Counted from the stretch's first letter, positions 32,562 to 64,000 are shown. The stretch is DNA of 64,000 nt from an uncultured Luteolibacter sp. (GCA_964569415.1 CAZMUK010000001.1:16481-80480), one strand, 5' to 3'. The notes: generated by a model not told the origin, from the sequence alone. Program-made: numbers and translations.

Positions 32562-32577
32562 CGCGTCGCGTCTTGGA

Positions 32578-34319: not shown

Positions 34320-34373
34320 CGTGGCGGAGGGGTCGTGAGTGGGAAGGGCGGCGCGACAGGCCGACCTATCGGA

Positions 34374-42178: not shown

Positions 42179-42730
42179 ATGCCATCGGCCCCGAAATCGC
42201 GACCCGCACTTCTCCTCGACCGTGATGGAGTAGTCAATGTGGACACGGGATACCTCCGCCATTCGTCGGAGATGGTGTTCATGGAGGGGATCTTCGAGCT
42301 GTGCCGGGAGGCGCAGGGAAAAGGGTATCTGCTGGTGATTGTGACCAACCAATCGGGGATCGGCAGGGGCTTGTTCACCCATGAGGAGTACGGCGACCTG
42401 ACGGAATGGATGCTGGGGGAGTTCCGCGCGGCGGGGTGTCCGATCGATCTGGTGAAACATTGCCCCGCACTGCCGGATAGCGGCGATCCGAACCGCAAGC
42501 CGGCCCCGGGAATGATTCTCGATGCGGCACAAGCCCTCGACATCGATCTGGCAAACAGCATCATGATCGGCGATCGCGCCAGCGACATGCTCGCGGGCAG
42601 CAGCGCGGGGGTGGGCTGCCTGCTGCTGCTGGGCGCCGGGGAGGACGGCGGGGTCCATGGCGTGACGCGGATCGCGGAGCTCGGGAACGCCATCAAACAT
42701 TTGATATCATTTTCCCATGGAGAACAGTGA
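42179..42730 (+). CDS. gmhB: D-glycero-manno-heptose 1,7-bisphosphate phosphatase-like HAD IIIA phosphatase
   Basis: LLLDRDGVVN, VTNQSGIGRG, RKPAPGMIL, MIGDRASD. Confidence 0.9.
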   Translation: MPSAPKSRPALLLDRDGVVNVDTGYLRHSSEMVFMEGIFELCREAQGKGYLLVIVTNQSGIGRGLFTHEEYGDLTEWMLGEFRAAGCPIDLVKHCPALPDSGDPNRKPAPGMILDAAQALDIDLANSIMIGDRASDMLAGSSAGVGCLLLLGAGEDGGVHGVTRIAELGNAIKHLISFSHGEQ

Positions 42731-43295
42731 CTGCCGGGCCTATCTGGCCACCCTGCGCGGGGCGTTGGAATCACCGGCCTTCGAGCGGGTGCCCGAACTC
42801 GCGCGCGCCCTCGCCGGGGTGAGGGAACGCGGAAATTGCGTGTACCTTTGCGGCAACGGCGGCAGCGGCGGCAACGCGCTTCACCTGGCAAACGACCTGA
42901 TCTTCGGCGCCGGCGGAAAGGGCGGCCACGGACTGCGCGTCGAGGCGCTCCCGGCCAACGCCGCGGTGCTCACCTGCCTCGCGAATGATCTGGGGTACGC
43001 AGAGGTGTTCTCGCGCCAACTCCGCATCAAGGGCCGCCCGGGCGATCTGTTGATCGTGCTTTCGGGAAGCGGCAATTCCCCGAATGTCGTGCGCGCCCTC
43101 GAAACGGCGAAGGAACTGGGGGTGCAGAGCGCGGCGATCCTTGCCTTCGGCGGAGGACGCTGCGCGGAACTCGCCGACATCGTCCTGCACTTCGAACTGG
43201 ACGACATGCAGGTGGCGGAGGATCTGCAATTGGTGGTCGGCCACATGATCGTGCAGTGGCTGGCGCGCATCGCCAACGAATCCACCGACGCATGA
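42717..43295 (+). CDS. gmhA: Phosphoheptose isomerase-like SIS domain protein
   Basis: CGNGGSGGNALH, ANDLGYAEVFSRQ, SGSGNSPNV, AEDLQLVVGH. Confidence 0.88.
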   Translation: MENSDCRAYLATLRGALESPAFERVPELARALAGVRERGNCVYLCGNGGSGGNALHLANDLIFGAGGKGGHGLRVEALPANAAVLTCLANDLGYAEVFSRQLRIKGRPGDLLIVLSGSGNSPNVVRALETAKELGVQSAAILAFGGGRCAELADIVLHFELDDMQVAEDLQLVVGHMIVQWLARIANESTDA

Positions 43296-44314
43296 ACCTT
43301 TCTCCCGCCCTATCGGATCCGCCGCGCATCGTGGTGATCGGCAGCAACTCCTTCTCCGGAGCGGGCTTCGTGTCGCGTTGCCTGCGCGAAGGCTGGGAGG
43401 TGCTGGGGATCAGCCGTTCGCCCGAGGCGGATCCGGTATTCCTGCCCTACCGTTGGGACATCGCGGCAGACGACCTCGCACGCTTCCGTTTCCTGCAGCT
43501 CGACCTCAACCGCGACACCGATGCGGTGGTCGATGCCGTCGCGGAACAACCCTCGATCGTGGTGAACTTCGCGGCCCAAGGCATGGTGGCCGAAAGTTGG
43601 GAGCGTCCCGTCGACTGGTACCGCACGAATGTCCTGGCCAATGTCGCGCTGCACGAGGGCCTGCGCCGCATCGAAAGCCTGCAGCGCTATGTGCATGTCT
43701 CCACGCCTGAGGTCTACGGCGGCATCACGGGCGAGGTGAACGAGGACCAACCCTTCGATCCCAGCACCCCCTACGCCGCATCGCGCGCCGCCTGCGAACT
43801 GCACCTGCGCACCTTCATCAGGCAGTACCGTTTCCCCGCGGTGATCACGCGCGCGGCGAATGTCTGCGGCCCGGGCCAGCAGCTCTATCGCATCATCCCG
43901 CGCACCCTGCTTTTCCTCGCGCTCGGCAAGCGCCTGAGTCTGCACGGCGGCGGACGCTCGGTGCGCTCGTTCATCCACATTGACGATGTTGCCTGCGGCA
44001 CCTTGCTCGCCGCCCTCCGCGCCGAACCGGGCGATGCCTTCCATTTCTCGACCCGCCGCGCGGTGTCGATCCACGAACTGGTCGCGATGATCTGCGATCA
44101 AGCGGGCATCGCGATCGGCGACTTCGTCGAAAATGTCCCGGACCGCCCGGGCAAGGATCCGTCCTACTTGCTCGACAGCACCCGCGCGCGCACCCGGCTC
44201 GGCTGGGACGACAGGATCACCCTCGAGGAAATCATCCGCGGAACCTCGGAGTGGATCCACTCCAACCTCGACCGCCTGCGCGAACTTCCCCATCACTACA
44301 TTCACCAACCCTGA
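43292..44314 (+). CDS. NAD-dependent NDP-sugar 4,6-dehydratase/epimerase
   Basis: GSNSFSG, NFAAQGMVAESW, HVSTPEVYG, YAASR, RSFIHIDD. ATGA-coupled. Confidence 0.87.
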   Translation: MNLSPALSDPPRIVVIGSNSFSGAGFVSRCLREGWEVLGISRSPEADPVFLPYRWDIAADDLARFRFLQLDLNRDTDAVVDAVAEQPSIVVNFAAQGMVAESWERPVDWYRTNVLANVALHEGLRRIESLQRYVHVSTPEVYGGITGEVNEDQPFDPSTPYAASRAACELHLRTFIRQYRFPAVITRAANVCGPGQQLYRIIPRTLLFLALGKRLSLHGGGRSVRSFIHIDDVACGTLLAALRAEPGDAFHFSTRRAVSIHELVAMICDQAGIAIGDFVENVPDRPGKDPSYLLDSTRARTRLGWDDRITLEEIIRGTSEWIHSNLDRLRELPHHYIHQP

Positions 44315-44323
44315 CGAATCACC

Positions 44324-45358
44324 ATGGCACGCATTCTAGTCACCGGAGGCTTCGGCTATGTGGGCAGCCGGCTTGTTCCCCATCTTCTTGAAAAAGGCCA
44401 CGATGTGCGGGTGATCGACCTGATGCTCTACGGCGACGGCGGGCTCCACGCGCTGGAGGCGACGCCCGGCCATGCGGCCAGGCGCGAACGCTTCGGTCTC
44501 GTCCGCGGCGACATCCGCGACCCGCAGGCCGTGCGCAAGGCGCTGGAGGACCGCGATACGGTCATCCATCTCGCAGCGATCTCCAACGATCCCACCGGCG
44601 AGGTCGACGAGGTGCTCACGCGACAGGTGAATTTCGACGCGATCGGGATGCTGCTGACCCTCGCGCGCGAGGCGGGTGTGAACCGATTCATCAATGCCTC
44701 GTCCTCCAGCGTCTTCGGCGCACGCAGCGAGTCGGAAATCGACGAACGCCTCGAACCGGAGCCGATCACGACCTATTCGAAATACAAGGCCCTCTCCGAG
44801 TGGTTGGTGCTGGCGGCGGGATCGTCCGGGTTCTGCGCGGTGAATGTGCGTCCGGCGACGATCTGCGGGTATTCCCCGCGCCAACGCTTCGACCTCACGG
44901 TCAACAAGCTCACCGCCGACGCGATCACCAAGGGAGTAATCACCGTGCACGGCGGCGAGCAGCGCCGTCCGAATGTGGGCATGACCGACATGATCAACCT
45001 CTACGCCCTGCTCGTCGAAACCCCGGCGGAGTCGATCAACGGCCGCACCTTCAACTTCGGTTTCGAAAACCACAAGGTGATCGACATCGCCGAAATCATC
45101 CGGTCCGAGCTGGCCGACCGCAATGTCTCGATCGAAGTCACCTCGACCCTTGATCACCGCGACTACCACATTTCCTCGCGGCACATCCTCGAGGAACTGG
45201 GCTACCGGCCGACCAGCAGCATCCGCGCCGAGGTGGCGGAGCTGCGCCGCGCGATCGAAGGAGGCGCCTTCACCGACACCGACGACCCGCTGTACTACAA
45301 CATGCGCTGCATGAAGCTGGGCCGCGACGCCCGTTGCACGGAACTCATCGCCCGATGA
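44324..45358 (+). CDS. NAD-dependent NDP-sugar epimerase/dehydratase (extended SDR)
   Basis: TGGFGYVG, HLAAISNDP, ASSSSVFG, YSKYK, RQRFDLTVN. Confidence 0.88.
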   Translation: MARILVTGGFGYVGSRLVPHLLEKGHDVRVIDLMLYGDGGLHALEATPGHAARRERFGLVRGDIRDPQAVRKALEDRDTVIHLAAISNDPTGEVDEVLTRQVNFDAIGMLLTLAREAGVNRFINASSSSVFGARSESEIDERLEPEPITTYSKYKALSEWLVLAAGSSGFCAVNVRPATICGYSPRQRFDLTVNKLTADAITKGVITVHGGEQRRPNVGMTDMINLYALLVETPAESINGRTFNFGFENHKVIDIAEIIRSELADRNVSIEVTSTLDHRDYHISSRHILEELGYRPTSSIRAEVAELRRAIEGGAFTDTDDPLYYNMRCMKLGRDARCTELIAR

Positions 45359-46908
45359 CCCCCGAGCAGAAGATCATTCCCTTCGCCGATGCGGTGGAGC
45401 ATTTCGCTCGCCTCCGTGCGGAAGGCCGCAGGCTGGTGCAGTGCCACGGCACCTTCGATCTCGTCCATCCCGGCCACATCCTGCATCTGCAACAGGCGGC
45501 CTCCCTCGGTGATGCGCTGGTGGTCACTCTCACCGCGGCCTCCCATGTCAACAAAGGGCCCGGGCGCCCCTACTTCAACGATTCGCTGCGCGCCCTGAGC
45601 CTCGCGGCCCTGGCCTGCGTCGATTTCGTGGTGTTGATTCCCCATGCCGCCGCGGTCGAGGCGATCGAAACGGTGCGGCCGCATGTGTACTGCAAGGGAA
45701 CCGAGTACTCGGATGCCGCCAACGATGTGACCGGAAACATCCGCGACGATCTCAAGACGGTCGAACGCTGCGGCGGCAAGATGGTGTATCTCGGCGAAAC
45801 GCTCTCGAGTTCGACGCGTTTGCTCAACAGCCACTTCGAGACCGCCAATCCCGAGGTCGCCTCGTTCTGCGCAGAGGTTGCCGCGCATTTCCCGCCGCAG
45901 CAGTTCGCGGATGCGGTGAACGGCTTTTCCCGACTGCGTGTCCTTGTCGTGGGAGATACGATTTTCGACAGGTATTCCTTCGTCAAGGTCCAGGGGCTCA
46001 CCTCGAAGAACCGCATCATCTCCGGCCGCTATCTGCACGAGGAGACCCAGGCCGGTGGCGCGCTTGCGGTGTATCGTCACATCAAGCAGTTCACCCCGAA
46101 TGTGCGCTTCGTTTCGCTGCTCGGGACGGAGGCCTGGCTCGATCCGGTACTGCGGCCCTACCTTCCCGCCGAAGACGATGCGACGGTCCGCGATCAGGAA
46201 TTCGTTTCGATCATCAAGCAGCGCTATGTCGAACCGGTCAGCGAGGGCAAGGACCTGAGCAAGCTCTTCTCGGTGAACTTCATCAACTCCGATCCGCCGG
46301 AACAAGCGGCGATCGATCGCATCCTCGGCAAGTTGGAGGCGGAGATCGGACGGGCGGATCTCGTGGTCCTTGCCGACTTCGGCCACGGAATGATGCAGGA
46401 TGCGGTGCGCGATCTTCTGCAGGACAGCGGCGTGTTCCTGGCCCTGAACTGCCAGACCAATTCGAACAACCACGGCTTCAACATCATCTCGCGCCAGTAC
46501 CGCAGGGCGGATGTGTTCTCGCTCGACGAACAGGAAATGATGCTCTCCTGCGGGCAGCGCAAGGTCGACTTCGCCGCCGAACTGGCCAAGCTGCGCGATC
46601 ATCTGGGGGCCCGCGCCGGCTGGCTCACCCGTGGGGCGGTCAAGACCATCGGCGTGGATTCCTCGGGCAACGCCGCCGCCTGTCCGCCGCTCGGCGACGA
46701 TGTGACCGACACGGTGGGTGCCGGCGATGCATTCTTCAGTGTCGTCGCCCTTGCCGCGGTTGCCGGTCTGCCGGTCGATCTCGCCACCCTGATGGGACAA
46801 CTCGCCGGCGCTCAGGCCGTGAAGATCGTCGGCAACCGCGATCCGATCTCCAAGGCGGTGCTGCTCAAGGGCGGCATGTCGATGCTCAACCGGGAAAAGG
46901 CTGTTTGA
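45355..46908 (+). CDS. Bifunctional nucleotidyltransferase (N-terminal) / PfkB sugar kinase (C-terminal), HldE-like with reversed domain order
   Basis: HGTFDLVHPGH (HxGH), KGPGRP, then VLVVGDTIFD, DFGHG, DTVGAGDAF. Confidence 0.88.
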   Translation: MTPEQKIIPFADAVEHFARLRAEGRRLVQCHGTFDLVHPGHILHLQQAASLGDALVVTLTAASHVNKGPGRPYFNDSLRALSLAALACVDFVVLIPHAAAVEAIETVRPHVYCKGTEYSDAANDVTGNIRDDLKTVERCGGKMVYLGETLSSSTRLLNSHFETANPEVASFCAEVAAHFPPQQFADAVNGFSRLRVLVVGDTIFDRYSFVKVQGLTSKNRIISGRYLHEETQAGGALAVYRHIKQFTPNVRFVSLLGTEAWLDPVLRPYLPAEDDATVRDQEFVSIIKQRYVEPVSEGKDLSKLFSVNFINSDPPEQAAIDRILGKLEAEIGRADLVVLADFGHGMMQDAVRDLLQDSGVFLALNCQTNSNNHGFNIISRQYRRADVFSLDEQEMMLSCGQRKVDFAAELAKLRDHLGARAGWLTRGAVKTIGVDSSGNAAACPPLGDDVTDTVGAGDAFFSVVALAAVAGLPVDLATLMGQLAGAQAVKIVGNRDPISKAVLLKGGMSMLNREKAV

Positions 46909-46948
46909 AATCCGGTGGCAGCCTGTTGACGCCGCCTGCATCCTGGGC

Positions 46949-47785
46949 TTGCCGTCCTTGACGATTTCCTCCGTGGACAAGTTGCGCTCCATTGCCGCCG
47001 GACTGCGCCGTGATGTGATCGGCATGTCCCACCGCGCGCGGACGCCTCACCTCGGATCCTGCCTTTCGTGCATCGATCTGCTGGTCGCCTTGTATTGGGA
47101 TTTCCTGCACATCGATCCGCGCGATCCGACTTCGCCCGACCGCGATCGTTTCATCCTCAGCAAGGGCCATGCGGCCCCGGCGCTTTACTCCGTCCTATGT
47201 GCGCGCGGATTCTTTCCGCCCGTGCTGCTTGCGAACTACGCAAGCGACGGCGCCGCGCTTGCCGAGCAACCGGCGCCCGGCTGCGCCCCCGGCGTGGAAT
47301 GGGCCACCGGCTCGCTCGGGCACGGTCTTCCGGTTGGCGTCGGCATGGCGTTGGCTGCACGGATTGCGAAACGCGACTACCGCAGCGTTGTCATGCTCAG
47401 CGACGGGGAGTGCAACGAGGGCACCGTCTGGGAGGCGGCGATGTTCGCTGCCGCGCAACGGATCGGCTCGCTGACGGTGATCGTCGATTACAACAAGTGG
47501 CAAGCAACGGGACGCAGCGAGGAGGTGATGGCGCTCGCACCCTTGCGCGAAAAGTGGGAGGCTTTCGGGTGGGAAAGTTGCGAGGTGAACGGCCACGATT
47601 TTCCGGAGATCCGCGAGGCCCTCGCCCGTGCCGGGACGGCAGGCCGTTCCCGGCCCCTCGCCATCGTCGCCCACACCATCAAGGGCCGCGGCGTCTCGTT
47701 CATGGAGGACGACAACAACTGGCACTATCGCATTCCCAATGCGGAAGAACTGGCCAGCGCAGAAAAGGAACTCGCGCTGGAATGA
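46949..47785 (+). CDS. Transketolase, N-terminal (TPP-binding) subunit
   Basis: HLGSCLSCID, DRFILSKGHAA, TGSLGHGL, SDGECNEGTVWEA, HTIKGRGVSFME. TTG start is uncertain. Confidence 0.92.
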   Translation: MPSLTISSVDKLRSIAAGLRRDVIGMSHRARTPHLGSCLSCIDLLVALYWDFLHIDPRDPTSPDRDRFILSKGHAAPALYSVLCARGFFPPVLLANYASDGAALAEQPAPGCAPGVEWATGSLGHGLPVGVGMALAARIAKRDYRSVVMLSDGECNEGTVWEAAMFAAAQRIGSLTVIVDYNKWQATGRSEEVMALAPLREKWEAFGWESCEVNGHDFPEIREALARAGTAGRSRPLAIVAHTIKGRGVSFMEDDNNWHYRIPNAEELASAEKELALE

Positions 47786-48201
47786 TGAAGGAAGAAGGCA
47801 GAAGGCAAAATAGAAAAGCAGATCTTGCCGATAGAACAAAGCTCTATGCCCGGCGCATTATTCGGCTTGTGTCGGCTTTGCCGAAGTCGGTTGTTGCGCA
47901 AGTGTTGGGCAAACAGGTTCTGCGTAGCGGAACGTCGGTGGGCGCGAACTATCGCGAAGCATCACGAGCTAGAAGCAAAGCTGAGTTCATCGCAAAAATG
48001 GGCGATTGCCTGAAAGAACTTGGTGAATCTGAATACTGGCTCGAGCTACTTTCCGAAGAAAGCGTGGTTCCATCGGCCAAACTTGCTCCGCTGCTGCAAG
48101 AAACTCACGAGCTAACCGCGATATTTGTCACGAGTATCAAAACCGCCCGCGGAAGCTGACTGTGCATTCATCATTCTGCACTCTGACTTCTAACTTTTCC
48201 C
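47780..48201. mobile_element. Putative repeat-bounded four-helix-bundle cassette inserted between the transketolase subunits
   Basis: gaatgatgaa (47780-47789) and ttcatcattc (48167-48176) form a perfect 10-bp inverted repeat. Purine-rich short repeats lie on the left and pyrimidine-rich short repeats on the right. Confidence 0.55.
47782..48159 (+). CDS. Four helix bundle protein (TIGR02436-type)
   Basis: QVLRSGTSVGANYREA.RARSKAEFIAK...LKEL.ESEYWLELL...ELTAIFVTSIK. 125 aa; visibly more A/T-rich than its neighbours. Confidence 0.93.
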   Translation: MMKEEGRRQNRKADLADRTKLYARRIIRLVSALPKSVVAQVLGKQVLRSGTSVGANYREASRARSKAEFIAKMGDCLKELGESEYWLELLSEESVVPSAKLAPLLQETHELTAIFVTSIKTARGS

Positions 48202-49125
48202 ATGCGTAACGCCTTCGCAGACGAAATCACGAGTCTTGCGCGGGAACGCGGGGACATCGTGCTGCTCTCCGGCGACATCGGCAACCGGCTTTTCGATCGG
48301 TTCAAGGAGGTGGCTCCCGGTCGTTTCTTCAACTGCGGAGTCGCCGAGGCGAACATGGTCGGCCTGGCTGCGGGGATGGCGGCCAGCGGTCTGCGGCCCG
48401 TTTGCTACACCATTGCCTCTTTCCTCACCTACCGGGTGATCGAGCAGATCCGGCTGGATCTCGGATACCATCACCAGCCCGTCATCCTGGTCGGCACCGG
48501 TGCGGGCTTGTCCTATGCCTCGCTGGGATCGACGCACCACTCGGTGGAGGACATGGGAATGCTGCGCCTGATTCCCGGACTTGCCGTGCTGGCGCCCGGC
48601 GACGAAAAGGAACTGCGGCCGGCCCTGCGCGCGGCGCTGGATCATCCTGGCCCGGTGTACATTCGCATCGGAAAGAAGGGCGAACCGGTGGTTCACGAGC
48701 ACGAACCGGAAGTCACCATCGGAAAGGCCGTACGCCTGCGCGAAGGAAACGACGCATGGATTCTCACACTGGGGAACACGCTGCCGATGGCCATGGAGGC
48801 CGCCGGAAAGCTTGCGGGAGAAGGACTGAGCTGCGGTGTCGCCAGCATGATCTCCCTCAAGCCCCTCGACAACAGCCTTCTTGCCGAGGTGTTCGGCTCA
48901 TCGAAAGTCGTTGCCACGATCGAAGAGCACTCGGTCCTCGGCGGTCTGGGCACAGCCGTTTCCGAATGGCTCGCCGGTAATGCTTCATCGGCCAAGGCCA
49001 AGCTCCTCACCTTCGGAACACCCGACGAGTTTCTCCACGCCACCACCCACCAACCATCCGCCCGCGCGTGGGCCGGTTTGACTGCAGACATAGTTGCCGA
49101 ACGCATTCTTGCGCTAAGCCAGTAG
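48202..49125 (+). CDS. Transketolase, C-terminal (pyrimidine-binding/C) subunit
   Basis: MRNAFADEI, LLSGDIG, FNCGVAEANMVGLAAG, GSTHHSVED, YIRIGK, TIEEHSVLGGLG. Confidence 0.92.
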   Translation: MRNAFADEITSLARERGDIVLLSGDIGNRLFDRFKEVAPGRFFNCGVAEANMVGLAAGMAASGLRPVCYTIASFLTYRVIEQIRLDLGYHHQPVILVGTGAGLSYASLGSTHHSVEDMGMLRLIPGLAVLAPGDEKELRPALRAALDHPGPVYIRIGKKGEPVVHEHEPEVTIGKAVRLREGNDAWILTLGNTLPMAMEAAGKLAGEGLSCGVASMISLKPLDNSLLAEVFGSSKVVATIEEHSVLGGLGTAVSEWLAGNASSAKAKLLTFGTPDEFLHATTHQPSARAWAGLTADIVAERILALSQ

Positions 49126-49164
49126 CATTCTGCATTCATCATTCTAAATTCTTCATTTCACTTC
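49125..49164. repeat. ORF-less copy of the four-helix-bundle cassette right-end repeat filling a whole intergenic space
   Basis: tgcattcatcattct at 49131-49145 is identical to 48163-48177. Confidence 0.75.
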
Positions 49165-49833
49165 ATGTCCTACATCGACTTCATCGCTCCGATCCACAAG
49201 GCGACGAGTCGTGATTATCTCGCTCGCGTAAACGATCCCGAATTTCCCAAGGCGAGGGCCGCGGAGTTGGCGCTTCAGTGGGGCGTCGATTACTGGGATG
49301 GCGACCGCCGCACCGGATACGGCGGCATGAACTACGATGGCCGCTGGCGCAAGGTGGCGGATCTCATGGCCTCCCATTACGGTCTCAAGGCGGGCGACCG
49401 CGTGCTGGACATCGGATGCGGAAAGGGATTTTTGCTCCATGACCTGACCCAGGCGGTTCCCGGCATCGAGGTGACCGGACTCGAGATCAGCAACTATGCC
49501 ATCAAACACGCCAAACCCGAGGTGAGGGAACGCATCGTCCACGGCAATGCCGCGGTATTGCCGTTTGCGGACGGGGAATTCGATTTCGTGTACTCCATCA
49601 ATACCCTGCACAATCTTCCTTGCCCCGAACTCGACCGTGCCCTGCGCGAAATGATGCGGGTCGGCAGGGGACACCGGTATCTTTGCGTCGAAAGCTGGCG
49701 CAACGAGTCCGAGAAAGCGAACCTGCTTTACTGGCAACTCACCTGCCGCGCCTTCTTCGCGCCGGACGAATGGGAGTGGTGGTTCGAACGGACCGGCTAC
49801 ACCGGCGACCACAGCTTTATTTATTTCGAGTGA
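49165..49833 (+). CDS. Class I SAM-dependent methyltransferase
   Basis: RVLDIGCGKGFL, FDFVYSINTLHN, REMMRVG. Confidence 0.88.
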   Translation: MSYIDFIAPIHKATSRDYLARVNDPEFPKARAAELALQWGVDYWDGDRRTGYGGMNYDGRWRKVADLMASHYGLKAGDRVLDIGCGKGFLLHDLTQAVPGIEVTGLEISNYAIKHAKPEVRERIVHGNAAVLPFADGEFDFVYSINTLHNLPCPELDRALREMMRVGRGHRYLCVESWRNESEKANLLYWQLTCRAFFAPDEWEWWFERTGYTGDHSFIYFE

Positions 49834-49836
49834 CCT

Positions 49837-50519
49837 GAACCACGAATCACACGGATTCCACGGATTATTCAGGGAAAATCAAGACTGAGTGCACATTGGG
49901 AAAGACCTCACGAAATCGCGAGGCATCCGGTTAGGGGTAGAAATTCTTTCCTGAGTCTGTTCGGGTATCTGTGCGATTTGGCACTTCCAAGGTTCAATTT
50001 TTCCTATCGTTTCAAACAACTTCTTACCGGACCAATCCGTGAAGCGGTCCGATCCCGAGTCAATGGCTTCCATGAATCCTCCTGGAAAACCACTGGTTCA
50101 CGAAGAACTCAGCAAGCGGATCATCGGTGCGGCCATGGATGTTCTCAATGCACTCCGACCCGGGTTGGATGAAAAGGTCCATGAGAACGCCCTGGTTGTT
50201 GAGTTGCGTCTCCGCGGCCATCAGGTGGAGCAGCAGCGAGGGTTCCCCATCCGGTATAAGGGAAATTTGGTGGGAACGCTGATTCCGGATCTGATCGTTG
50301 ATGATCTCGTAATTGTGGATACCAAGGTCGTCTCCACCTTCAACGATGCCCATACCGCTCAAATGACTGGTTATTTGGCAATTACCGGCCTTCGATTTGC
50401 CATCCTGTTGAATTTCAAGTCTGCGAAACTCGAGTGGAAACGGGTCGTCCGCTGATAAACATGAGGTTTTGCACACGGCAACTCTTTTGAATCAGTGTCA
50501 TTTGTGTGATCCGTGGTTC
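49837..50519. mobile_element. GxxExxY cassette bounded by 30-bp imperfect terminal inverted repeats
   Basis: Left gaaccacgaatcacacggattccacggatt (49837-49866); the reverse complement of the right repeat (50490-50519) is gaaccacggatcacacaaatgacactgatt. 24 of 30 positions match. Confidence 0.7.
50072..50455 (+). CDS. GxxExxY protein (PD-(D/E)xK nuclease fold)
   Basis: IIGAAMDVLNALRPGLDEKVHENAL, YKGNLVG...PDLIVDDLVIVDTK, AQMTGYL..TG...ILLNF. Start at 50072 or 50063. Confidence 0.9.
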   Translation: MNPPGKPLVHEELSKRIIGAAMDVLNALRPGLDEKVHENALVVELRLRGHQVEQQRGFPIRYKGNLVGTLIPDLIVDDLVIVDTKVVSTFNDAHTAQMTGYLAITGLRFAILLNFKSAKLEWKRVVR

Positions 50520-50526
50520 GAAAACC

Positions 50527-51579
50527 ATGAAAACCCCAGCCGCCATTTTGGTCGAGCAGCGCAAACCGCTGGTGATCGACGAAGTCGAGGTTCCGGTGCT
50601 GCGGCGCGGACAGGTGCTTGTCGAGATCCACGCCACGCGTGTCTGCGGATCGCAGATCGGCGAGATCGACGGAGTCAAGGGTCCCGATCGCTATCTTCCC
50701 CACCTGCTCGGTCACGAGGCGGGCGGCATCGTACTCGAGGTCGGAACGGATGTGACCCATGTTGCGCCGGGTGACCGTGTGGTCTGCCACTGGCGTCCGG
50801 GAGCCGGCATCGATGCGGGAGGATCGGTGTACGATTGGCACGGCAAGCCGGTCAATGCGGGCCCAATCACCACCTTTCAACGACACGCCGTCATTTCCGA
50901 GAACCGACTTACCAAAGTTCCCGCCGATACCGATTTCGAATTGTGCTGCCTTCTCGCCGACACCCTGACGACCGGATTCGGGATCATAAACAATGACGCC
51001 AAGGTCAAAGCGGGGGAGTCGGTTGTCATTTTCGGGGTGGGAGGAATCGGTCTCGGCGTGGTGCTCGGAGCCAAGCTTGCGGGAGCGGACCCGGTCATCG
51101 GCATAGATCTTCATGAGCACAAATTGGCCAAAGCTGCCGAATACGGCCTGACGCATCAGATCAATGCCTCGCGCGAAAACGCTGCTGATCGGGTGAAGGA
51201 GATTCTTGGTGGATTGGCCGATGTCACGATTGATGGAACCGGGAATCCCGGTGTTATCGAAACGGCCTACGACCTGGCCAAGCTGCGCGGGGGGCGCTGC
51301 GTGTTGTTTGGCGTGATGCCCCACGACCAGCGCGTGAGCATCCACACCCTGCCGCTGCACTTCGGTCGAATCCTCACCGGATCGGAGGGCGGCCAAAGCC
51401 AACCGGATAAGGACATTCCGAAGATTCTCGGCACCCTGGCCGCGCAAGGGTTCGATTGGCGGGGACTCGTTTCTCATCGGTCCGTGATGCAGGCCGTCAA
51501 TGAAAACACCGCTGCAATGCGCGCCGGCTCGGTGGTGAATGCGGTGCTGCACATGCATCAGAGCCCCGCCGGGTCCTGA
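50527..51579 (+). CDS. Zinc-binding alcohol dehydrogenase (MDR) family protein
   Basis: VCGSQ, LLGHEAGG, GVGGIG. The structural four-Cys zinc loop appears absent. Confidence 0.88.
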   Translation: MKTPAAILVEQRKPLVIDEVEVPVLRRGQVLVEIHATRVCGSQIGEIDGVKGPDRYLPHLLGHEAGGIVLEVGTDVTHVAPGDRVVCHWRPGAGIDAGGSVYDWHGKPVNAGPITTFQRHAVISENRLTKVPADTDFELCCLLADTLTTGFGIINNDAKVKAGESVVIFGVGGIGLGVVLGAKLAGADPVIGIDLHEHKLAKAAEYGLTHQINASRENAADRVKEILGGLADVTIDGTGNPGVIETAYDLAKLRGGRCVLFGVMPHDQRVSIHTLPLHFGRILTGSEGGQSQPDKDIPKILGTLAAQGFDWRGLVSHRSVMQAVNENTAAMRAGSVVNAVLHMHQSPAGS

Positions 51580-53308: not shown

Positions 53309-53344
53309 GAGCCCGTTTTCCATACCGGAACCTCCATTTGACCC

Positions 53345-56216: not shown

Positions 56217-56226
56217 TTAACAGCTT

Positions 56227-57519: not shown

Positions 57520-57566
57520 GCAGTTTCAATGGCCATTGCGGCTGGGCGGCTGGATCTTTCCTCGGG

Positions 57567-58550: not shown

Positions 58551-59071
58551 TCGTGGCTTTTCTAACCGTTTCCGCCGTCGCCCTGTGTGCGGCCTGGCTC
58601 CTGCACATCCTGCTCTGGCGGGTGCGACTTCCTTCGCGGCAACTGATGACCTTGCTATCGGTATTTTCCGCAGTCTGGGTTTTGGCCTCGGTCTGGATTC
58701 TGCTCTCGCCGGGATCGTTCGGTTTGGGGGATCGGGTTTCGGCTGCGGGATTCATCTACTTTGGCCTCCTCTATTGGTCCGCGGCTCTCTGCTATGTGAT
58801 CACCTATTCCGCGATGGAGGGGGACAGTCCGACGCTGAGTCTGACACGGCACCTGCATCGCACGGGCAAGGGGGGTGTCCCGCATGAGGAGATTGAGGAG
58901 TTTTTCCGTCAAAGGCCGTTTGTCGGTGCCCGGGTGACGGCTTTGGTCGCGGACGGGGTTCTCGTCGAGGAAGAGAGCGGCTATCGGCTTTCGTCGGGGA
59001 GGTATCTGTTTTTCCGCGTGATCCTCGGCTATCGGCGGTTCGTCTTCGGGCAGGTAAAGGCGGGGGGATAG
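58547..59071 (+). CDS. Small membrane protein (3-4 TM plus soluble C-terminal domain), paralog A
   Basis: Hydrophobic N-terminal half; C-terminal ..HEEIEEFF..ARVTALVADGVLVEEESGYRL. ATGA-coupled. Confidence 0.75.
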   Translation: MIVAFLTVSAVALCAAWLLHILLWRVRLPSRQLMTLLSVFSAVWVLASVWILLSPGSFGLGDRVSAAGFIYFGLLYWSAALCYVITYSAMEGDSPTLSLTRHLHRTGKGGVPHEEIEEFFRQRPFVGARVTALVADGVLVEEESGYRLSSGRYLFFRVILGYRRFVFGQVKAGG

Positions 59072-59086
59072 CAGCGATCGGGTTTT

Positions 59087-59173
59087 GCCACGGATTTCGC
59101 GTTCAGCGCAGATATGGGGTGCGAAAAATCAATTAATTCGGATCAGTGAGATTGGTTTCGTCAGTGGTTCGAA
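59087..59173. repeat. ORF-less element resembling both ends of the GxxExxY cassette
   Basis: 59141-59173 matches 50490-50522 at 25 of 33 positions without gaps. gccacggatt at 59087 resembles the left-end ccacg(a/g)at motif. Confidence 0.65.
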
Positions 59174-59185
59174 CCCCGAAATACC

Positions 59186-59725
59186 ATGGCGGTTGAATGG
59201 TTTTATTTGTCGAGCCCCATTGCGGCATTGGCCATCATGGTCTTGGTGCAGGCTGTTTTCCTTCGCCTGAGGCGCGGAGAGCGCTTTTTCGAGTCGGTGG
59301 TTCGGGGGTTTTCGGCGGGGCTGCTGGTTGTGCTTGCCCTGCAGGCGGTGTTGCTGCTGGTTTTTCCGCGCAATGCCGACCGTTGGGTATTGGCCCTCGT
59401 CGCCAATCCGGCCATCTACATCATGCTCGCCTACTGTTTTTTCAACTTCATCAATCTCGGCCAGGCATCGATCCGGATCCGCATTTTCAAGGAATGCGAC
59501 GAGCGAGGTGGTTTCATCACACATGAGGAGTTGCGCACCGTGTATGACGACGAGCTGATCCGCAGGGCGAGGCTCGAGCGCTTGCTCGAGGGTGGCGACA
59601 TCGTTTGCGAGGACGGCCGATGGAGGCTGGTCAATCCAAGACTGGTTCCGGTGGCCGTTGTGGTTTTCGCGCTCAAGAGGTTTGTCTTGCGCCGGGAGAG
59701 TGAATTCGACGGGATCGGCAAATGA
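59186..59725 (+). CDS. Small membrane protein (3-4 TM plus soluble C-terminal domain), paralog B
   Basis: Hydrophobic N-terminal half; C-terminal ..HEELRTVY..ARLERLLEGGDIVCEDGRWRL. Confidence 0.75.
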   Translation: MAVEWFYLSSPIAALAIMVLVQAVFLRLRRGERFFESVVRGFSAGLLVVLALQAVLLLVFPRNADRWVLALVANPAIYIMLAYCFFNFINLGQASIRIRIFKECDERGGFITHEELRTVYDDELIRRARLERLLEGGDIVCEDGRWRLVNPRLVPVAVVVFALKRFVLRRESEFDGIGK

Positions 59726-60492
59726 GACTCGGACCCACAGAGGAGGTTTCGCCCGCCGCCGCCACGCAGGAAGCTCCCGTGTTTCTGAGTCTCTTTGTTG
59801 CCTGCTACAACGAGCAGGACAATATTCTCGGAACTCTGGAGACGCTGGTCCGTGCGTTGCGGAACACGGTTCCGTCCTTCGACATCATCGTCATCGACGA
59901 CGCATCCCGTGACGAGAGCGTTTCCCGGATCCGGGGATTCATGGCGGAGAACCCCGGGGTTCCGCTCCGCCTGCTGTTGAACGAGCATAACCAAGGAGTG
60001 GCGACCAACTATGCGGAAGGAGCGTTCCGGGCCAAAGGCGAGTGGTACCGGATGATCTGCGGCGACAATGTCGAGCCGCAGGAGACCCTGGAGACGATCT
60101 TCAGGGCAATCGGGAAGGCCGAGGTGGTGGTTCCCTACACGGTCGAGATCCGCGGACGCAGCACGTTCCGCCGCCTTCTTTCCAAGACCTTCACGACATT
60201 GGTCAATTTCATCAGCGGGTACCGGATGCATTACTACAACGGGTTGCTGGTGACACGCGCCGAGTATGTGAGGCGTTGGCACTCGAACTCGCATGGATTC
60301 GGTTTTCAGGCGGACCTTCTCACCAGGCTGCTTTCAAAAAATCTCCCGCATCTCGAGGTTGCGGTCTACGGCAACGAACGGGCCACGGGCGAATCCAAGG
60401 CCTTGACGCTCCGCAATCTTGCCTCTGTCGCGCATTCGTTGCAGAACATCGCGATCCGCCGCATCTCCAAAGCTCTCTACGGCCAGTGCTGA
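59722..60492 (+). CDS. Glycosyltransferase family 2 (DPM1-like)
   Basis: LFVACYNEQDNI, IDDASRD, MICGDN, HGFGFQADLL, GNERATGESKA. Confidence 0.87.
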   Translation: MRLGPTEEVSPAAATQEAPVFLSLFVACYNEQDNILGTLETLVRALRNTVPSFDIIVIDDASRDESVSRIRGFMAENPGVPLRLLLNEHNQGVATNYAEGAFRAKGEWYRMICGDNVEPQETLETIFRAIGKAEVVVPYTVEIRGRSTFRRLLSKTFTTLVNFISGYRMHYYNGLLVTRAEYVRRWHSNSHGFGFQADLLTRLLSKNLPHLEVAVYGNERATGESKALTLRNLASVAHSLQNIAIRRISKALYGQC

Positions 60493-61070
60493 TCGGCATC
60501 GATCTCGACAACACCATCGTCTGCTACGACGCGGTTTTCGCCGATCTCGCTTCCGAGGCAGGCCTGCCGGAGGAAGTCGCGGCAGCGGGCAAGCAGGCGA
60601 TCCGCGACCATCTCCGCCGGGCGGGCCGCGAGGAGGAGTGGACGATGATGCAGGGACTTGCCTACGGCAGGCGAATGCCTGATGCAGCGCCCTTTCCCGG
60701 CGTGTTGGAGTTCATGGCGCAGGCGGTCGGGCTTGGATACGAATTGGCGGTTGTCAGCCATCGCACACGCCAACCGATTCTCGGGGACCCCTTCGACCTG
60801 CATGGCGCTGCCTCGGAGTGGCTGGTCCGGTGCGGCGCGGACCGTTTGGCGCGGATCTTCCTTGAGGAGTCCCAGGCATCGAAGGCCGCCCGTGTCCGCG
60901 ATCTCGGATGCGCGGTGTTCATTGATGATCTTTCCGATTTTCTCGGGCGTTCTGATCTTCCCGTTTTGATGAGAAAGATTCTTTTCGTTCCCGTGGAAAG
61001 CGGCGAATGTCCCGGATTCGAGACGGTGGGGAGCTGGGAGCGGATCGCGAACCTCTTGTTGGCGAGGTGA
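60486..61070 (+). CDS. HAD-superfamily hydrolase-like protein
   Basis: LIGIDLDNTI (motif I), VVSHRT (motif II), VFIDDL (motif IV). GTG start at 60486. Confidence 0.8.
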   Translation: MLIGIDLDNTIVCYDAVFADLASEAGLPEEVAAAGKQAIRDHLRRAGREEEWTMMQGLAYGRRMPDAAPFPGVLEFMAQAVGLGYELAVVSHRTRQPILGDPFDLHGAASEWLVRCGADRLARIFLEESQASKAARVRDLGCAVFIDDLSDFLGRSDLPVLMRKILFVPVESGECPGFETVGSWERIANLLLAR

Positions 61071-62053
61071 GTGGCGACTTTTTGCTGTCGGCCGAAGTCG
61101 CTGCGTGGTTGGAGCACCGGGGTTTCACCCGTGCCGAGCGGGTTGTGGGGGGCAGGAACAACCGGTTGTTCCGGGTGTGGGGCGGGCGTGGCACGGCGGC
61201 TCTCAAGCTTCATTACCGGGGAGGCGGTGACCGCCGCAACCGTTTTGGTGTGGAGAGGTCGTTTTACTCGTTGGCCCGAACGCGCGGGGTTTCCGCTCCG
61301 CTTCTGCTCGACTCCGATGAGGACCTCGGAGCATGTTTGCTCGAGTGGGTGGACGGAACTCCTGTGGGTGCAATCAACGGGCAGGACCTCGAAGATGCGG
61401 CGGGATTCCTCACCGGAATGAATGAACCGGTTCCGGCGTCGTCCGAAGTACCGGTTCCGGCGAGTGAGGCCTGCTTTGCGACGAGGGACCATTTGGCGCT
61501 TCTTGATGCCAGGATCGACCGCCTGCGCGAAGCGGCCGAGGGAGTTGCTGCGGTCGGGGATTTTCTTGAGTCGATCCTGTTGCCTCACGTTGCCGAGCTT
61601 CGGGTACGACTGGAGGGTGATGTCCCGGCGGATTTCGGAGCGGGTGGGGGGCGGAGGATTCTTTCGCCTGGGGACTTCGGTTTTCATAACGCCATGCGGC
61701 GCGATGACGGGCGTCTGGTGTTTTTCGATTTCGAGTATTCCGGATGGGACGATCCCGCGAAGACCGTCGCGGACATTTTCCTGCAGCCCGAGAGTCCTGT
61801 CGCTTGGGGGTTTCTTGAAGGATTCTGTGCCAAGCTGGATGGATGGCCGGATCTTGTGCGGAGAGTGCGGGCTTGGGTTCCGTTTTACGCCGCGAAATGG
61901 GCGGTGATTCTTCTGGGTCCGATCACGAACCAAGCCGCGGAGAGACGCCGTTTCGCGGGCGAGGGGACCGATGCTGCAGCCGTCGTACGCCAACAGGAGA
62001 AAGCGAAGGAAGTCATCCGTCGCGGGAGGGAATTGGCAAACCGGGGAGCCTGA
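61067..62053 (+). CDS. Aminoglycoside phosphotransferase/choline kinase family protein
   Basis: GGRNNRLFRV, ALKLH, LSPGDFGFHNA (catalytic loop), FFDFEYSGWDDP. The GTG start overlaps the previous stop. Confidence 0.85.
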   Translation: MSGDFLLSAEVAAWLEHRGFTRAERVVGGRNNRLFRVWGGRGTAALKLHYRGGGDRRNRFGVERSFYSLARTRGVSAPLLLDSDEDLGACLLEWVDGTPVGAINGQDLEDAAGFLTGMNEPVPASSEVPVPASEACFATRDHLALLDARIDRLREAAEGVAAVGDFLESILLPHVAELRVRLEGDVPADFGAGGGRRILSPGDFGFHNAMRRDDGRLVFFDFEYSGWDDPAKTVADIFLQPESPVAWGFLEGFCAKLDGWPDLVRRVRAWVPFYAAKWAVILLGPITNQAAERRRFAGEGTDAAAVVRQQEKAKEVIRRGRELANRGA

Positions 62054-63204: not shown

Positions 63205-63206
63205 TC

Positions 63207-64000
63207 GTGACTCTCATCGTCGGTGCGGATGGTTTGATTGGCAGGGCCTTGCTCCGCCTTTTGTGTGACGCGGGGGAGGAGGTGGTCGGCACGAGCCGCA
63301 GGCCGGGGAGCGGTTTGGTGGAGTTGGATTTGCGGGAGCCTGATTGCTTTTCCGTTCAGCCCGGAATTCACACGGCGGTGCTCTGTGCGGGGATCGGGTC
63401 CTTGGCCGAGTGCGCCTCGGCCCCCCTTGCCACCGCAGCGGTGAATGTGGACGGGACGGTGAGGCTTGCGAGGTCGCTTGCGGATGCGGGCGTGAATGTG
63501 GTGCTTCTTTCGACCAATTTGGTTTTCGATGGTGCGACGGCGTTTCCGACACCGGGTGATCCAGTGAGTCCGTGCTGCGAATACGGTCGGCAAAAGGCGC
63601 GGATGGAGCGGGAGCTTCAAGGGCCTCGTTTTGCGATCCTTCGCCTGACGAAAGTGACCGAGTCTCTCGGTGGCAGGTTCCGTGCCTGGCGGGATACGCT
63701 GCTTGGCGGGGGCGACATCCATGCCTCTTCCGTTCTTCGCTTTTCGCCGGTATCCCTTGCTTCCGTTTGCTCGGTGCTGGCCGCGTTGTCGCGTCGCTTC
63801 GAGCCCGGTGTGTTCCAACTCTCCGGCGAGCGGGATGTTTCGTACTTCGAAGCGGCGTTGGAGTGGGCTTCTTTTCTCGGTGTCCCGGCGCGACAGGTCA
63901 GGCCCGATGTCGATGCCGCAACTGCGCTTCTGGATCCTATGCCGAGGCATGGCACGCTGGCCCTTGCCTTGCCCGCCGCGTGTCCGGCTCGCAACTTCGC
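63207..64000 (+). CDS. RmlD-like NDP-4-keto-6-deoxyhexose reductase (partial, runs off the window)
   Basis: Manual translation from GTG 63207: TLIVGADGLIG, AVLCAG, VNVDGT, LSTNLVFDG, YGRQK. No stop seen before 64000; absent from the ORF track because it is unterminated. Confidence 0.82.
   Translation, partial: MTLIVGADGLIGRALLRLLCDAGEEVVGTSRRPGSGLVELDLREPDCFSVQPGIHTAVLCAGIGSLAECASAPLATAAVNVDGTVRLARSLADAGVNVVLLSTNLVFDGATAFPTPGDPVSPCCEYGRQKARMERELQGPRFAILRLTKVTESLGGRFRAWRDTLLGGGDIHASSVLRFSPVSLASVCSVLAALSRRFEPGVFQLSGERDVSYFEAALEWASFLGVPARQVRPDVDAATALLDPMPRHGTLALALPAACPARNF

What the first reader, a model, noticed from the sequence alone, without database searches (positions are those of the whole stretch)
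42179..51579. Candidate higher-carbon (heptose/octose) nucleotide-sugar pathway with its own transketolase
Seen: gmhB-like, gmhA-like, two NDP-sugar dehydratase/epimerases, a nucleotidyltransferase-kinase fusion, split transketolase, methyltransferase and Zn-dehydrogenase in one tightly coupled run. Known: GmhA-HldE-GmhB make NDP-heptose from sedoheptulose-7-P, and the lincosamide octose pathway uses an analogous isomerase/kinase/phosphatase/nucleotidyltransferase set after a dedicated chain-extending enzyme. Inference: the locus transketolase supplies a non-standard ketose phosphate or adds a C2 branch to an NDP-4-keto sugar, yielding an unusual deoxy, methylated or branched sugar.
Basis: partly seen in the sequence, partly recalled or inferred. 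Interest (0 to 1): 0.65.

Follow-up and report, generated by a model that had tools for sequence, protein, structure and literature searches.

The report
Bradyrhizose-type heptose–transketolase sugar operon
This Verrucomicrobial capsule locus carries a conserved but biochemically unstudied gene set, related to the operon Bradyrhizobium needs for its ten-carbon sugar bradyrhizose, in which an altered two-part transketolase most likely adds two carbons to an activated heptose rather than supplying an ordinary precursor.

Summary
All nine genes are present at 42179-51579. Two small unrelated genes also sit in the run: a four-helix-bundle gene between TK-N and TK-C, and a GxxExxY gene before the ADH.

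The run is only part of a larger module. A HAD-like phosphatase, an APH-like kinase, a GT2 and two small membrane proteins at 58.6-62 kb belong to it as well.

The module is conserved in at least 249 species, mostly Verrucomicrobiota. In loci with enough flank, 59 of 61 have a ThDP enzyme after the nucleotidyltransferase-kinase gene. It is either this split transketolase (50 loci) or a pyruvate-dehydrogenase-E1 alpha/beta-like pair (9 loci).

The transketolase keeps its cofactor residues. It has lost the sugar-phosphate-binding residues (H461G, D469L, R520K), invariantly so in about 50 orthologs. The genome also has a normal full-length tkt.

Metagenome contigs that match both published gdh primers of Bradyrhizobium ORS285 carry an 11-gene run with the same genes. 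A gdh mutant lacks the bradyrhizose O-antigen.

The transketolase therefore most likely builds the sugar skeleton (heptose plus C2) at the nucleotide-sugar level. The chemistry is inferred, not shown. Verdict: a new variant of a genetically known but uncharacterised pathway family.

The parts
42179..42730 (+). GmhB-like HAD-IIIA phosphatase
   Evidence: NF006506 scores 148.6 bits (cut-off 178) and TIGR00213 scores 137.8 (cut-off 149.6). It is the only copy in the genome.
42717..43295 (+). GmhA-like SIS isomerase
   Evidence: SIS_2, E 4.8e-19. TIGR00441 scores 107.5 (cut-off 209). It is the only SIS_2 gene in the genome. It is 47-60% identical to the SIS gene in related loci.
43256..44314 (+). 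SDR1, a gdh-type RmlB-like extended SDR with S-T-P-E and Y-x-x-x-R motifs
   Evidence: Searches show similarity to dTDP-glucose 4,6-dehydratases. The motifs are invariant in 53-54 orthologs and are shared by the gdh homologs on primer-matched contigs (47-52% identity).
44324..45358 (+). SDR2, an epimerase/dehydrogenase-type SDR with no dehydratase Glu
   Evidence: The best PDB match is 6VO6, E 3.2e-29. From memory this is Cj1427, a GDP-heptose C4-dehydrogenase.
45334..46908 (+). Nucleotidyltransferase (N-terminal) fused to a PfkB kinase (C-terminal); HldE-like with reversed domain order
   Evidence: It is 56-80% identical in 80 loci. The same architecture occurs in the gdh-type contigs.
46949..47785 (+). 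Transketolase-like subunit N (ThDP/Mg binding)
   Evidence: H26, H66, D155, N185 and H261 are kept, and H100 is replaced by Q.
47782..48159 (+). Inserted four-helix-bundle (23S rRNA IVS protein family) gene, not part of the pathway
   Evidence: TIGR02436. In orthologous loci it is present, absent or at other junctions.
48202..49125 (+). Transketolase-like subunit C (Pyr and TKC domains)
   Evidence: E411 and H473 are kept. The changes H461G, D469L and R520K are invariant in about 50 orthologs.
49165..49833 (+). Class I SAM methyltransferase (MT220) that travels with the TK
   Evidence: It is 48% identical to the MT next to the TK in the Solidesulfovibrio plasmid, and 58-63% identical to the MT in gdh-type contigs.
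50039..50455 (+). Inserted GxxExxY / PDDEXK_3 gene, not part of the pathway
   Evidence: Its presence varies among orthologous loci.
50506..51579 (+). Zn-dependent (MDR) alcohol dehydrogenase of the liver/class III ADH type
   Evidence: The catalytic Zn ligands are visible in the sequence. It is present in both TK-type and E1-type loci.
58601..59725 (+). Two small membrane proteins (tm171-like 58601-59071, tm180-like 59186-59725) of the conserved module
   Evidence: They are 37-38% identical to the two genes after the ADH in L008. They recur.
59722..60492 (+). GT2 of about 256 aa; ArnC-like (undecaprenyl-phosphate sugar transferase) is its second-best NCBIfam match
   Evidence: It is 46-63% identical in related loci.
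60489..61070 (+). HAD-like phosphatase (HAD192) with a DxDxT motif
   Evidence: It co-occurs with the TK only and is fused in frame to the APH in L081.
61007..62053 (+). APH/protein-kinase-like small-molecule kinase
   Evidence: It co-occurs with the TK only.
61843..63998 (+). Second methyltransferase (ORF 61843-63204) and RmlD-like reductase (62985-63998, which runs off the window)
   Evidence: Homologs follow the APH in L008, L011, L102 and L103.

Best explanation
The run is the front half of a Verrucomicrobial member of the 'gdh operon' family. In photosynthetic Bradyrhizobium that operon is genetically required for the O-antigen made of the ten-carbon bicyclic sugar bradyrhizose.

Proposed flow; every step is inferred, none is shown:

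1. The GmhA-like isomerase, the PfkB kinase, a phosphatase (GmhB-like and/or HAD192) and the N-terminal nucleotidyltransferase turn a ketose 7-phosphate, most simply sedoheptulose-7-P, into an NDP-heptose.
2. SDR2 (a Cj1427-like C4-dehydrogenase) and/or SDR1 (gdh-type) make a 4-keto sugar nucleotide.
3. The divergent split transketolase, with ThDP and Mg, transfers a two-carbon glycolaldehyde unit onto this nucleotide sugar.
4. The Zn-ADH, the RmlD-like reductase and the methyltransferase(s) finish the sugar.
5. A small GT2 and two membrane proteins may pass the sugar to a lipid carrier for the capsule or LPS. This lipid-carrier role is suggested only by a weak ArnC-like match.

On this reading the transketolase builds the carbon skeleton, giving a C9 branched, extended or ring-closed sugar (C10 if a C-methyl is added). 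It does not supply sedoheptulose-7-P.
For: **Family membership**
- The degenerate form of the ORS285 gdh forward primer (PMC4743980) found 8 metagenome contigs.
- Four contigs carry both primers with at most 2 mismatches. In L109 the two sites lie 381 bp apart inside an SDR1 homolog.
- The longer versions show exactly eleven co-directional genes: NT-PfkB, NTP_transferase, SDR, SIS, gdh-SDR, TKN, TKC, ADH, HAD, APH, MT. This matches the paper's 'cluster of eleven genes'.
- The window has homologs of ten of these eleven (27-63% identity). It shares the odd SDR1 motifs TPE and YxxxR and the TK signature G/L/K.

**TK is not housekeeping**
- A full-length canonical tkt is on contig C12.
- The window TK-C lies in a starred clade away from E. 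coli TktA, the own-genome tkt and the C. hydrogenoformans split TK (quick tree).
- H461G, D469L and R520K are invariant in about 50 orthologs. They are typical of a large divergent subfamily: 114 of 133 representatives have G at H461.

**Action at nucleotide-sugar level**
- 59 of 61 loci have a ThDP enzyme after the NT-kinase: TK in 50, a PDH-E1 alpha/beta-like pair in 9.
- E1-like pairs (AviB1/B2, Pau11/12) are one of only two mechanisms described for sugar two-carbon branches (PMC4425429).
- The paralogous TK on C39 sits in an rfbF-rfbG-SDR-TKN-MT-TKC cluster with no sugar-phosphate enzymes.
- Its Paenibacillus counterpart encodes the SDR and TK-N as one 635-aa protein.
- SDR2's best PDB relative is 6VO6, E 3e-29.
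Against: - No enzyme of the family has been assayed, so the donor, the acceptor and the product are all inferred.
- The Bradyrhizobium record itself could not be fetched. The link rests on primer-matched metagenome contigs and on one polar-effect-prone insertion mutant.
- The HAD phosphatase and APH kinase co-occur strictly with the TK (33 of 38 TK loci, 0 of 6 E1 loci). R358 is retained. Both would also fit a phosphorylated substrate.
- The SDR-TKN fusion and the C39 cluster concern a paralog that is only 39-44% identical.
- ThDP enzymes prefer aldehyde acceptors to ketones.
- The nucleotide (ADP, CDP or GDP) is unknown.
Confidence: 0.6

Rival explanations
1. Precursor supply. The locus transketolase works on sugar phosphates. 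It makes sedoheptulose-7-P or an unusual ketose phosphate (for example octulose-8-P or nonulose-9-P). The GmhA-like isomerase, kinase, phosphatase and nucleotidyltransferase then activate that product, as in the lincosamide octose logic.
For: - The TK lies in one run with isomerase, kinase and phosphatase genes.
- An extra kinase/phosphatase pair (APH, HAD192) co-occurs with the TK only.
- The R358 equivalent is conserved.
- The 'heptose' enzymes all score below equivalog cut-offs, so their substrate need not be S7P.
Against: - A canonical tkt is present.
- H461, D469 and R520 are lost.
- An E1 alpha/beta pair substitutes for the TK in 9 loci. With pyruvate it would give a 1-deoxy-ketose that a GmhA-type isomerase cannot convert to an aldose.
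- The paralogous TK lies in a CDP-hexose cluster with no sugar-phosphate enzymes, and its Paenibacillus counterpart is fused to an SDR.
Confidence: 0.15
2. Linear chain extension. The Zn-ADH oxidises the terminal CH2OH of the NDP-heptose to an aldehyde. The TK (or E1) adds C2 there, giving an unbranched NDP-nonos-8-ulose with no branch at C4.
For: - The ADH is of the liver/class III type that interconverts primary alcohols and aldehydes. It is present in both TK and E1 loci.
- Aldehydes are the normal acceptors of transketolases and DXS-like enzymes (general knowledge).
Against: - The C39/Paenibacillus-type clusters act on 6-deoxyhexoses, which have no terminal alcohol.
- The module has two 4-keto-generating SDRs.
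- Published hemiacetal behaviour of bradyrhizose (O4, O5 and O9 all close on C1) implies a C4-C9 bond, that is, a branch at C4. This is my inference.
Confidence: 0.15
3. Ordinary pathway. The genes make only standard ADP- or GDP-(6-deoxy)-manno-heptose for LPS or capsule, and the TK is a passenger or a redundant housekeeping copy.
For: - This is the only gmhA, gmhB and HldE-like set in the genome, and one GT9 heptosyltransferase-like gene exists elsewhere. The front end may therefore also feed the LPS core.
Against: - The TK (or E1), ADH and MT are kept next to the NT-kinase in 59 of 61 loci across several phyla, with an invariant altered active site.
- Such conservation is not expected of a passenger gene.
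Confidence: 0.04

Closest known systems
Eleven-gene 'gdh' operon of photosynthetic Bradyrhizobium (ORS285 BRAO285v1_100023 region; Busset et al. 2016, PMC4743980)
   Same: - It has the same gene set: NT-PfkB fusion, SIS isomerase, two SDRs including the gdh type with TPE/YxxxR, split TK with the G/L/K signature, Zn-ADH, HAD, APH kinase and a 220-aa MT.
- Identities to the window are 27-63%.
- The gdh insertion mutant lacks the bradyrhizose O-antigen.
   Different: - The phylum differs.
- In the window the module is split by a 7-kb block (GT-C-like gene, rfbF, rfbG, GT2, C-MT, SDR) and by two small inserted genes.
- The window has GmhB, two membrane proteins and a GT2, and it lies in an ABC-transporter capsule locus. 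No NTP_transferase could be assigned to the module; the rfbF-like one at 53345-54121 lies in the inserted block.
- H100 is Q in the Verrucomicrobial TKs and H in the proteobacterial ones.
- The comparison was made with primer-matched metagenome contigs, not with the ORS285 record.
- The operon itself is biochemically uncharacterised.
AviB1/AviB2 and Pau11/Pau12 (PDH-E1 alpha/beta-like) and YerE: the described enzymes for two-carbon branches on deoxysugars (PMC4425429)
   Same: - All use ThDP-dependent C2 transfer onto a 4-keto sugar.
- A ketoreductase and tailoring enzymes follow.
- An E1 alpha/beta-like pair occupies the TK's position in 9 sister loci and in the Azospirillum oryzae plasmid.
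   Different: - The window enzyme is of the transketolase type, not the E1 or acetolactate-synthase type. It would presumably transfer glycolaldehyde rather than acetaldehyde.
- The substrate is heptose-derived.
- No activity has been shown.
ADP-heptose pathway GmhA / HldE / GmhB and the C. jejuni GDP-heptose modification enzymes (Cj1427 C4-dehydrogenase; PMC10680097)
   Same: - It has the isomerase, kinase, phosphatase and nucleotidyltransferase logic.
- SDR2 resembles 6VO6.
   Different: - All scores are below equivalog cut-offs and the domain order is the reverse of HldE.
- No HldD was recognised, and extra TK, ADH, HAD and APH genes are present.
Split transketolase of Carboxydothermus hydrogenoformans (PDB 6YAK/6YAJ; PMC7661550)
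   Same: - It has the same two-chain architecture and is the best PDB match: E 4.5e-66 for the N subunit and 4e-51 for the C subunit.
   Different: - That enzyme keeps THAG...GEDG..HQ. The window has GTGAG...ASLG..HH, that is H461G, D469L and Q474H, and it has K for R520.

Membership tests
Bradyrhizobium gdh (bradyrhizose) operon family | gdh-type RmlB-like SDR (the mutated gene) | tested here: met
   SDR1 is 47-52% identical to the SDR that carries both ORS285 gdh primer sites. It shares the S-T-P-E and Y-x-x-x-R motifs.
Bradyrhizobium gdh (bradyrhizose) operon family | Presence of the other ten genes of the eleven-gene run | tested here: met
   Homologs of NT-PfkB, SDR, SIS, TKN, TKC, ADH, HAD, APH and MT are all in the window. 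An orthologous NTP_transferase is uncertain. The order is interrupted by a 7-kb block.
Bradyrhizobium gdh (bradyrhizose) operon family | Direct sequence comparison with the ORS285, ORS278 or BTAi1 record | not tested
Only primer-matched metagenome contigs were used.
Bradyrhizobium gdh (bradyrhizose) operon family | The product is bradyrhizose or a relative | not testable with these tools
   This needs glycan chemistry.
Canonical transketolase (EC 2.2.1.1) | ThDP/Mg and cofactor-activating residues (H26, H66, D155, N185, H261, E411, H473) | tested here: met
Canonical transketolase (EC 2.2.1.1) | Substrate residues H461, D469, R520 (and H100) | tested here: not met
   The window has G, L, K and Q at these positions, invariant in about 50 orthologs.
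Canonical transketolase (EC 2.2.1.1) | NCBIfam equivalog cut-off | tested here: not met
   NF004559 scores 266 bits (N subunit) and 172 bits (C subunit) against a cut-off of 488.
GmhA / HldE / GmhB ADP-heptose pathway | Equivalog-level HMM scores and the HldE domain order (kinase then adenylyltransferase) | tested here: not met
   The scores are 107.5 vs 209, 115.8 vs 521 and 148.6 vs 178. The nucleotidyltransferase is N-terminal.
AviB1/B2-type or YerE-type sugar C2-branching enzymes | PDH-E1 alpha/beta or acetolactate-synthase-like fold | tested here: not met
   The window enzyme is of the Transketolase_N / Transket_pyr type. E1 pairs occur only in sister loci.
Cj1427-type NDP-heptose C4-dehydrogenase (SDR2) | Close sequence relation and catalytic S/Y/K without a dehydratase Glu | tested here: inconclusive
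   The match to 6VO6 has E 3.2e-29. The YxxxK motif is present and there is no Glu after the SSS motif. That 6VO6 is Cj1427 is from memory and could not be confirmed.

The most novel reading that the evidence does not exclude
The module makes a carbocycle-fused higher sugar of the bradyrhizose type by a route never described:

1. The transketolase-like enzyme adds a glycolaldehyde unit to C4 of an NDP-4-keto-heptose, making what would be the C4-C9 bond.
2. The Zn-ADH oxidises C7 to an aldehyde.
3. An intramolecular aldol between the new hydroxymethyl carbon and C7 closes a six-membered carbocycle.
4. A methyltransferase could supply the tenth carbon.

This would make split-TK-like proteins a third class of sugar C2-branching enzyme. 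It would also put bradyrhizose-like sugars on the surface of many Verrucomicrobiota.
Probability: 0.3. Interest if true: 0.85.

Novelty: new variant of a known kind. Interest (0 to 1): 0.6.

Why it matters
[quoted passage not shown] Only two enzyme types are described for two-carbon branches on sugars.

This locus and its hundreds of relatives give a defined, testable enzyme set. It contains a transketolase with a rebuilt pocket and an E1-type natural substitute.

If the reading is right, it explains how C9/C10 branched or bicyclic sugars are built. It also predicts such sugars in abundant soil and freshwater Verrucomicrobiota, and it offers a new C-C bond-forming biocatalyst that acts on nucleotide sugars.

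If the reading is wrong, a strictly conserved and widespread altered transketolase in glycan loci still lacks a function.

Tried and rejected
- **Open-literature searches.** Searches for transketolase together with heptose, capsule, O-antigen, CDP-glucose or branched sugars found nothing relevant.
- **'TK-less' variant.** I first thought a variant without any ThDP enzyme existed. My ORF picker had mis-called those loci. They carry E1 alpha/beta-like genes.
- **HAD192 and APH.** Profile searches against PDB, and Pfam and NCBIfam scans, gave no informative relative. Their role stays open.
- **Contexts of distant TK-C representatives.** The contigs were too short to be useful.
- **Fetching the Bradyrhizobium record.** A search with an alphaproteobacterial TK-N listed no Bradyrhizobium among the best 120.
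- **6VO6 = Cj1427.** This could not be confirmed from held papers.
- **A. oryzae SDRs.** They are not orthologs of SDR1.
- **Head of the cluster in the closest relatives.** The 256-aa gene at the head of the cluster in the closest Chthoniobacterales loci is not gmhA.
- **Window C-methyltransferase.** The gene at 56227-57519 is only about 30% identical to the C-MT that accompanies the module elsewhere. I did not assign it to the pathway.

Full report
**Observation**

The window belongs to a 2.6-Mb, 176-contig Verrucomicrobiota genome.

- GmhB-like HAD phosphatase, 42179-42730
- GmhA-like SIS isomerase, 42717-43295
- RmlB-like SDR1, to 44314
- second SDR2, 44324-45358
- 524-aa fusion with a cytidylyltransferase-family domain at the N-terminus and a PfkB kinase at the C-terminus, 45334-46908. 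This is the reverse of the HldE order.
- Transketolase_N, 46949-47785
- Transket_pyr plus Transketolase_C, 48202-49125
- class I SAM methyltransferase, 49165-49833
- Zn-ADH, 50506-51579

Two small genes not mentioned in the finding sit in the run. One is a four-helix-bundle (23S rRNA IVS protein) gene at 47782-48159, exactly between the two TK halves. The other is a PDDEXK_3/GxxExxY gene at 50039-50455. In orthologous loci without the four-helix-bundle gene, TK-N and TK-C are still separate and overlap by 4 nt. The split is therefore ancestral and the small gene is an insertion. All the heptose-type enzymes score below NCBIfam equivalog cut-offs.

**Surroundings**

Upstream on the minus strand lie KpsC/S-like, Wza-like, ABC-2 and sulfotransferase genes. 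This is an ABC-transporter-type capsule locus. Downstream of the ADH lies a block at 51764-58550.

After that block come homologs of the genes that directly follow the ADH in related loci:

- two small membrane proteins
- a 256-aa GT2 whose second-best NCBIfam match is ArnC-like
- a HAD-like phosphatase, 60489-61070
- an APH-like kinase, 61007-62053
- a second methyltransferase and an RmlD-like reductase

The finding therefore covers only the first half of a larger module.

**Conservation**

A profile of the NT-kinase fusion found relatives in 249 species representatives. The best 80 loci are nearly all Verrucomicrobiota MAGs. tblastn of the window's proteins over these loci gives a recurring order: gmhA-SDR1-SDR2-NTkin-(ADH)-TKN-TKC-HAD-APH-MT-(ADH).

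Loci that at first looked TK-less carry a pyruvate-dehydrogenase-E1 alpha/beta-like pair at the same place. Among 61 loci with at least 3 kb after the NT-kinase, 50 have the split TK, 9 have the E1 pair and 2 have neither.

The HAD and APH genes accompany the TK in 33 of 38 loci and the E1 pair in 0 of 6. Fisher's test gives p = 6.5e-5, but the loci are not phylogenetically independent. In L081 the HAD and APH are one 550-aa reading frame.

**The transketolase itself**

The genome has a canonical full-length tkt on contig C12 and a second split TK on C39. I aligned the window TK to E. coli TktA. It keeps the cofactor residues H26, H66, D155, N185, H261, E411 and H473, and also R358. It has G for H461, L for D469, K for R520 and Q for H100.

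These states are invariant in about 50 orthologs of 52-91% identity. The C. hydrogenoformans split TK, the best PDB match, keeps the canonical residues. Among 133 diverse representatives nearest to TK-C, 114 have G at H461 and 92 have L or A at D469. The window enzyme thus belongs to a large divergent TK-like subfamily. In a quick tree it falls in a starred clade away from the canonical TKs.

**Where such TKs occur**

- The C39 paralog (44% and 39% identity) lies in a cluster ordered Wzt, NTP_transferase, 4,6-dehydratase, SDR, TKN, TylF-MT, TKC, GT. That cluster has no sugar-phosphate enzymes.
- A Paenibacillus plasmid has the same architecture, with the SDR and TK-N fused in one 635-aa protein.
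- A Solidesulfovibrio plasmid has pseB, pseC, HAD, APH, an unannotated gap where TK-N would lie, TKC and the 220-aa MT (MT 48% identical).
- Azospirillum halopraeferens, a cultured species, has TKN-TKC-ADH-HAD-APH-SDR1, then MT and RmlD after an intervening sulfotransferase gene.
- An Azospirillum oryzae plasmid has the E1-type version.

PDH-E1-like pairs (AviB1/B2, Pau11/12) and YerE are the only mechanisms described for two-carbon branches on sugars (PMC4425429).

**Link to bradyrhizose**

Earlier notes of this scan on other genomes pointed to the Bradyrhizobium gdh operon. I treated this as a lead. Busset et al. (PMC4743980) report that insertions in gdh abolish the bradyrhizose O-antigen in ORS285. 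gdh is the 'dTDP-glucose 4,6-dehydratase' in 'a cluster of eleven genes'. The paper prints the primers.

The forward primer encodes D-A-F-L-P-Y-K-W, which matches SDR1's P-V-F-L-P-Y-R-W. A degenerate version of it found eight metagenome contigs. Four of them carry both primers with at most 2 mismatches. In L109 the two sites lie 381 bp apart inside an SDR1 homolog. The paper states a 300-400 bp fragment.

The longer contigs show exactly eleven co-directional genes: NT-PfkB (501 aa), NTP_transferase, SDR, SIS, gdh-SDR, TKN, TKC, ADH, HAD, APH and a 220-aa MT. A TylCIII-type C-methyltransferase follows. These proteins share the SDR1 TPE/YxxxR motifs and the TK G/L/K signature with the window. 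The window module therefore belongs to this operon family. I could not fetch the ORS285 record itself.

**Mechanism (inferred)**

A ThDP enzyme is a near-universal member of the module. It can be replaced by an E1 pair. It is fused to an SDR in a paralogous system. It has lost the sugar-phosphate pocket, and it coexists with a normal tkt. Together these argue that it acts on the nucleotide sugar and builds the skeleton.

SDR2 resembles 6VO6, which from memory is Cj1427, the GDP-heptose C4-dehydrogenase described in PMC10680097. A 4-keto-heptose is therefore a plausible acceptor.

Bradyrhizose is a ten-carbon bicyclic sugar whose C1 closes on O4, O5 or O9 (PMC9912281). That implies a C4-C9 bond. 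This is what C2 addition at C4 would make. Closure onto a C7 aldehyde made by the liver-type ADH would then form the carbocycle. Heptose (7 carbons) plus C2 plus one methyl gives ten carbons. This is a hypothesis only.

The strict TK-HAD-APH association is unexplained. It is the main point in favour of a phosphorylated substrate.

**Verdict**

The branch or extension option is favoured over precursor supply.
- The module is a new variant, in another phylum and architecture, of a genetically known but biochemically uncharacterised pathway family.

Noticed in passing
window 47782-48159 and 50039-50455: A four-helix-bundle (23S rRNA IVS protein family) gene and a GxxExxY/PDDEXK_3 gene sit in gene junctions of the operon. 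In orthologous loci the same families appear at other junctions or are absent (for example between SDR1 and SDR2 in L022, L027 and L028). They behave like mobile junction inserts.
   Followed up: partly
own genome contig C39:14989-20893 (L006:10990-16894): A second split TK-like pair has the same H461G/D469L signature. It lies in a cluster ordered Wzt, NTP_transferase, 4,6-dehydratase, SDR, TKN, TylF-MT, TKC, GT2, GT1. The genome therefore has two TK-containing glycan pathways.
   Followed up: partly
window 51764-58550: A block splits the conserved module between the ADH and the tm171-like gene. Whether its C-MT serves the heptose pathway or a separate CDP-hexose pathway is open.
   Followed up: partly
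L087:17570-19476, also L070, L080, L089: In a subgroup of the E1-type loci, a DmpF-like acylating acetaldehyde dehydrogenase and a DmpG-like 4-hydroxy-2-oxovalerate aldolase follow the ADH and a C-MT. This is a further C-C-bond enzyme pair in a sugar cluster, and it is unexplained.
   Followed up: no
L081:14347-15999: The HAD-like phosphatase and the APH-like kinase are fused in one 550-aa frame in a Pedosphaera-like MAG. The L090 coordinates suggest the same fusion there.
   Followed up: partly
L099:7097-9004 (Paenibacillus cellulosilyticus plasmid): A 635-aa protein fuses an extended SDR to a Transketolase_N domain. It lies in an rfbF-rfbG-CMT-...-TKC-TylF cluster.
   Followed up: yes
window 43256-44314: SDR1 has Y-x-x-x-R instead of the SDR Y-x-x-x-K, S-T-P-E instead of the RmlB S-T-D-E, and an atypical glycine-rich NAD motif (GSNSFSGAG). 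The first two are invariant in 53-54 orthologs and in the gdh-type contigs.
   Followed up: partly
own genome contig C162:404-1021: The genome has a single GT9 (heptosyltransferase-family) gene. Its only gmhA, gmhB and HldE-like genes lie in this capsule locus, so the front end may also feed the LPS core.
   Followed up: no
window 30781-35099: Sulfotransferase-family genes lie beside the capsule export genes. The A. halopraeferens cassette also carries a sulfotransferase (L102:15735-18374).
   Followed up: no
L101 (Solidesulfovibrio carbinolicus pDCAR1, record 76000-93000): The same plasmid carries an NT-PfkB homolog, a SIS gene, several radical SAM genes, NeuB/PseF genes and a second TK pair. 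This is a large glycan island with two TK-like systems.
   Followed up: no
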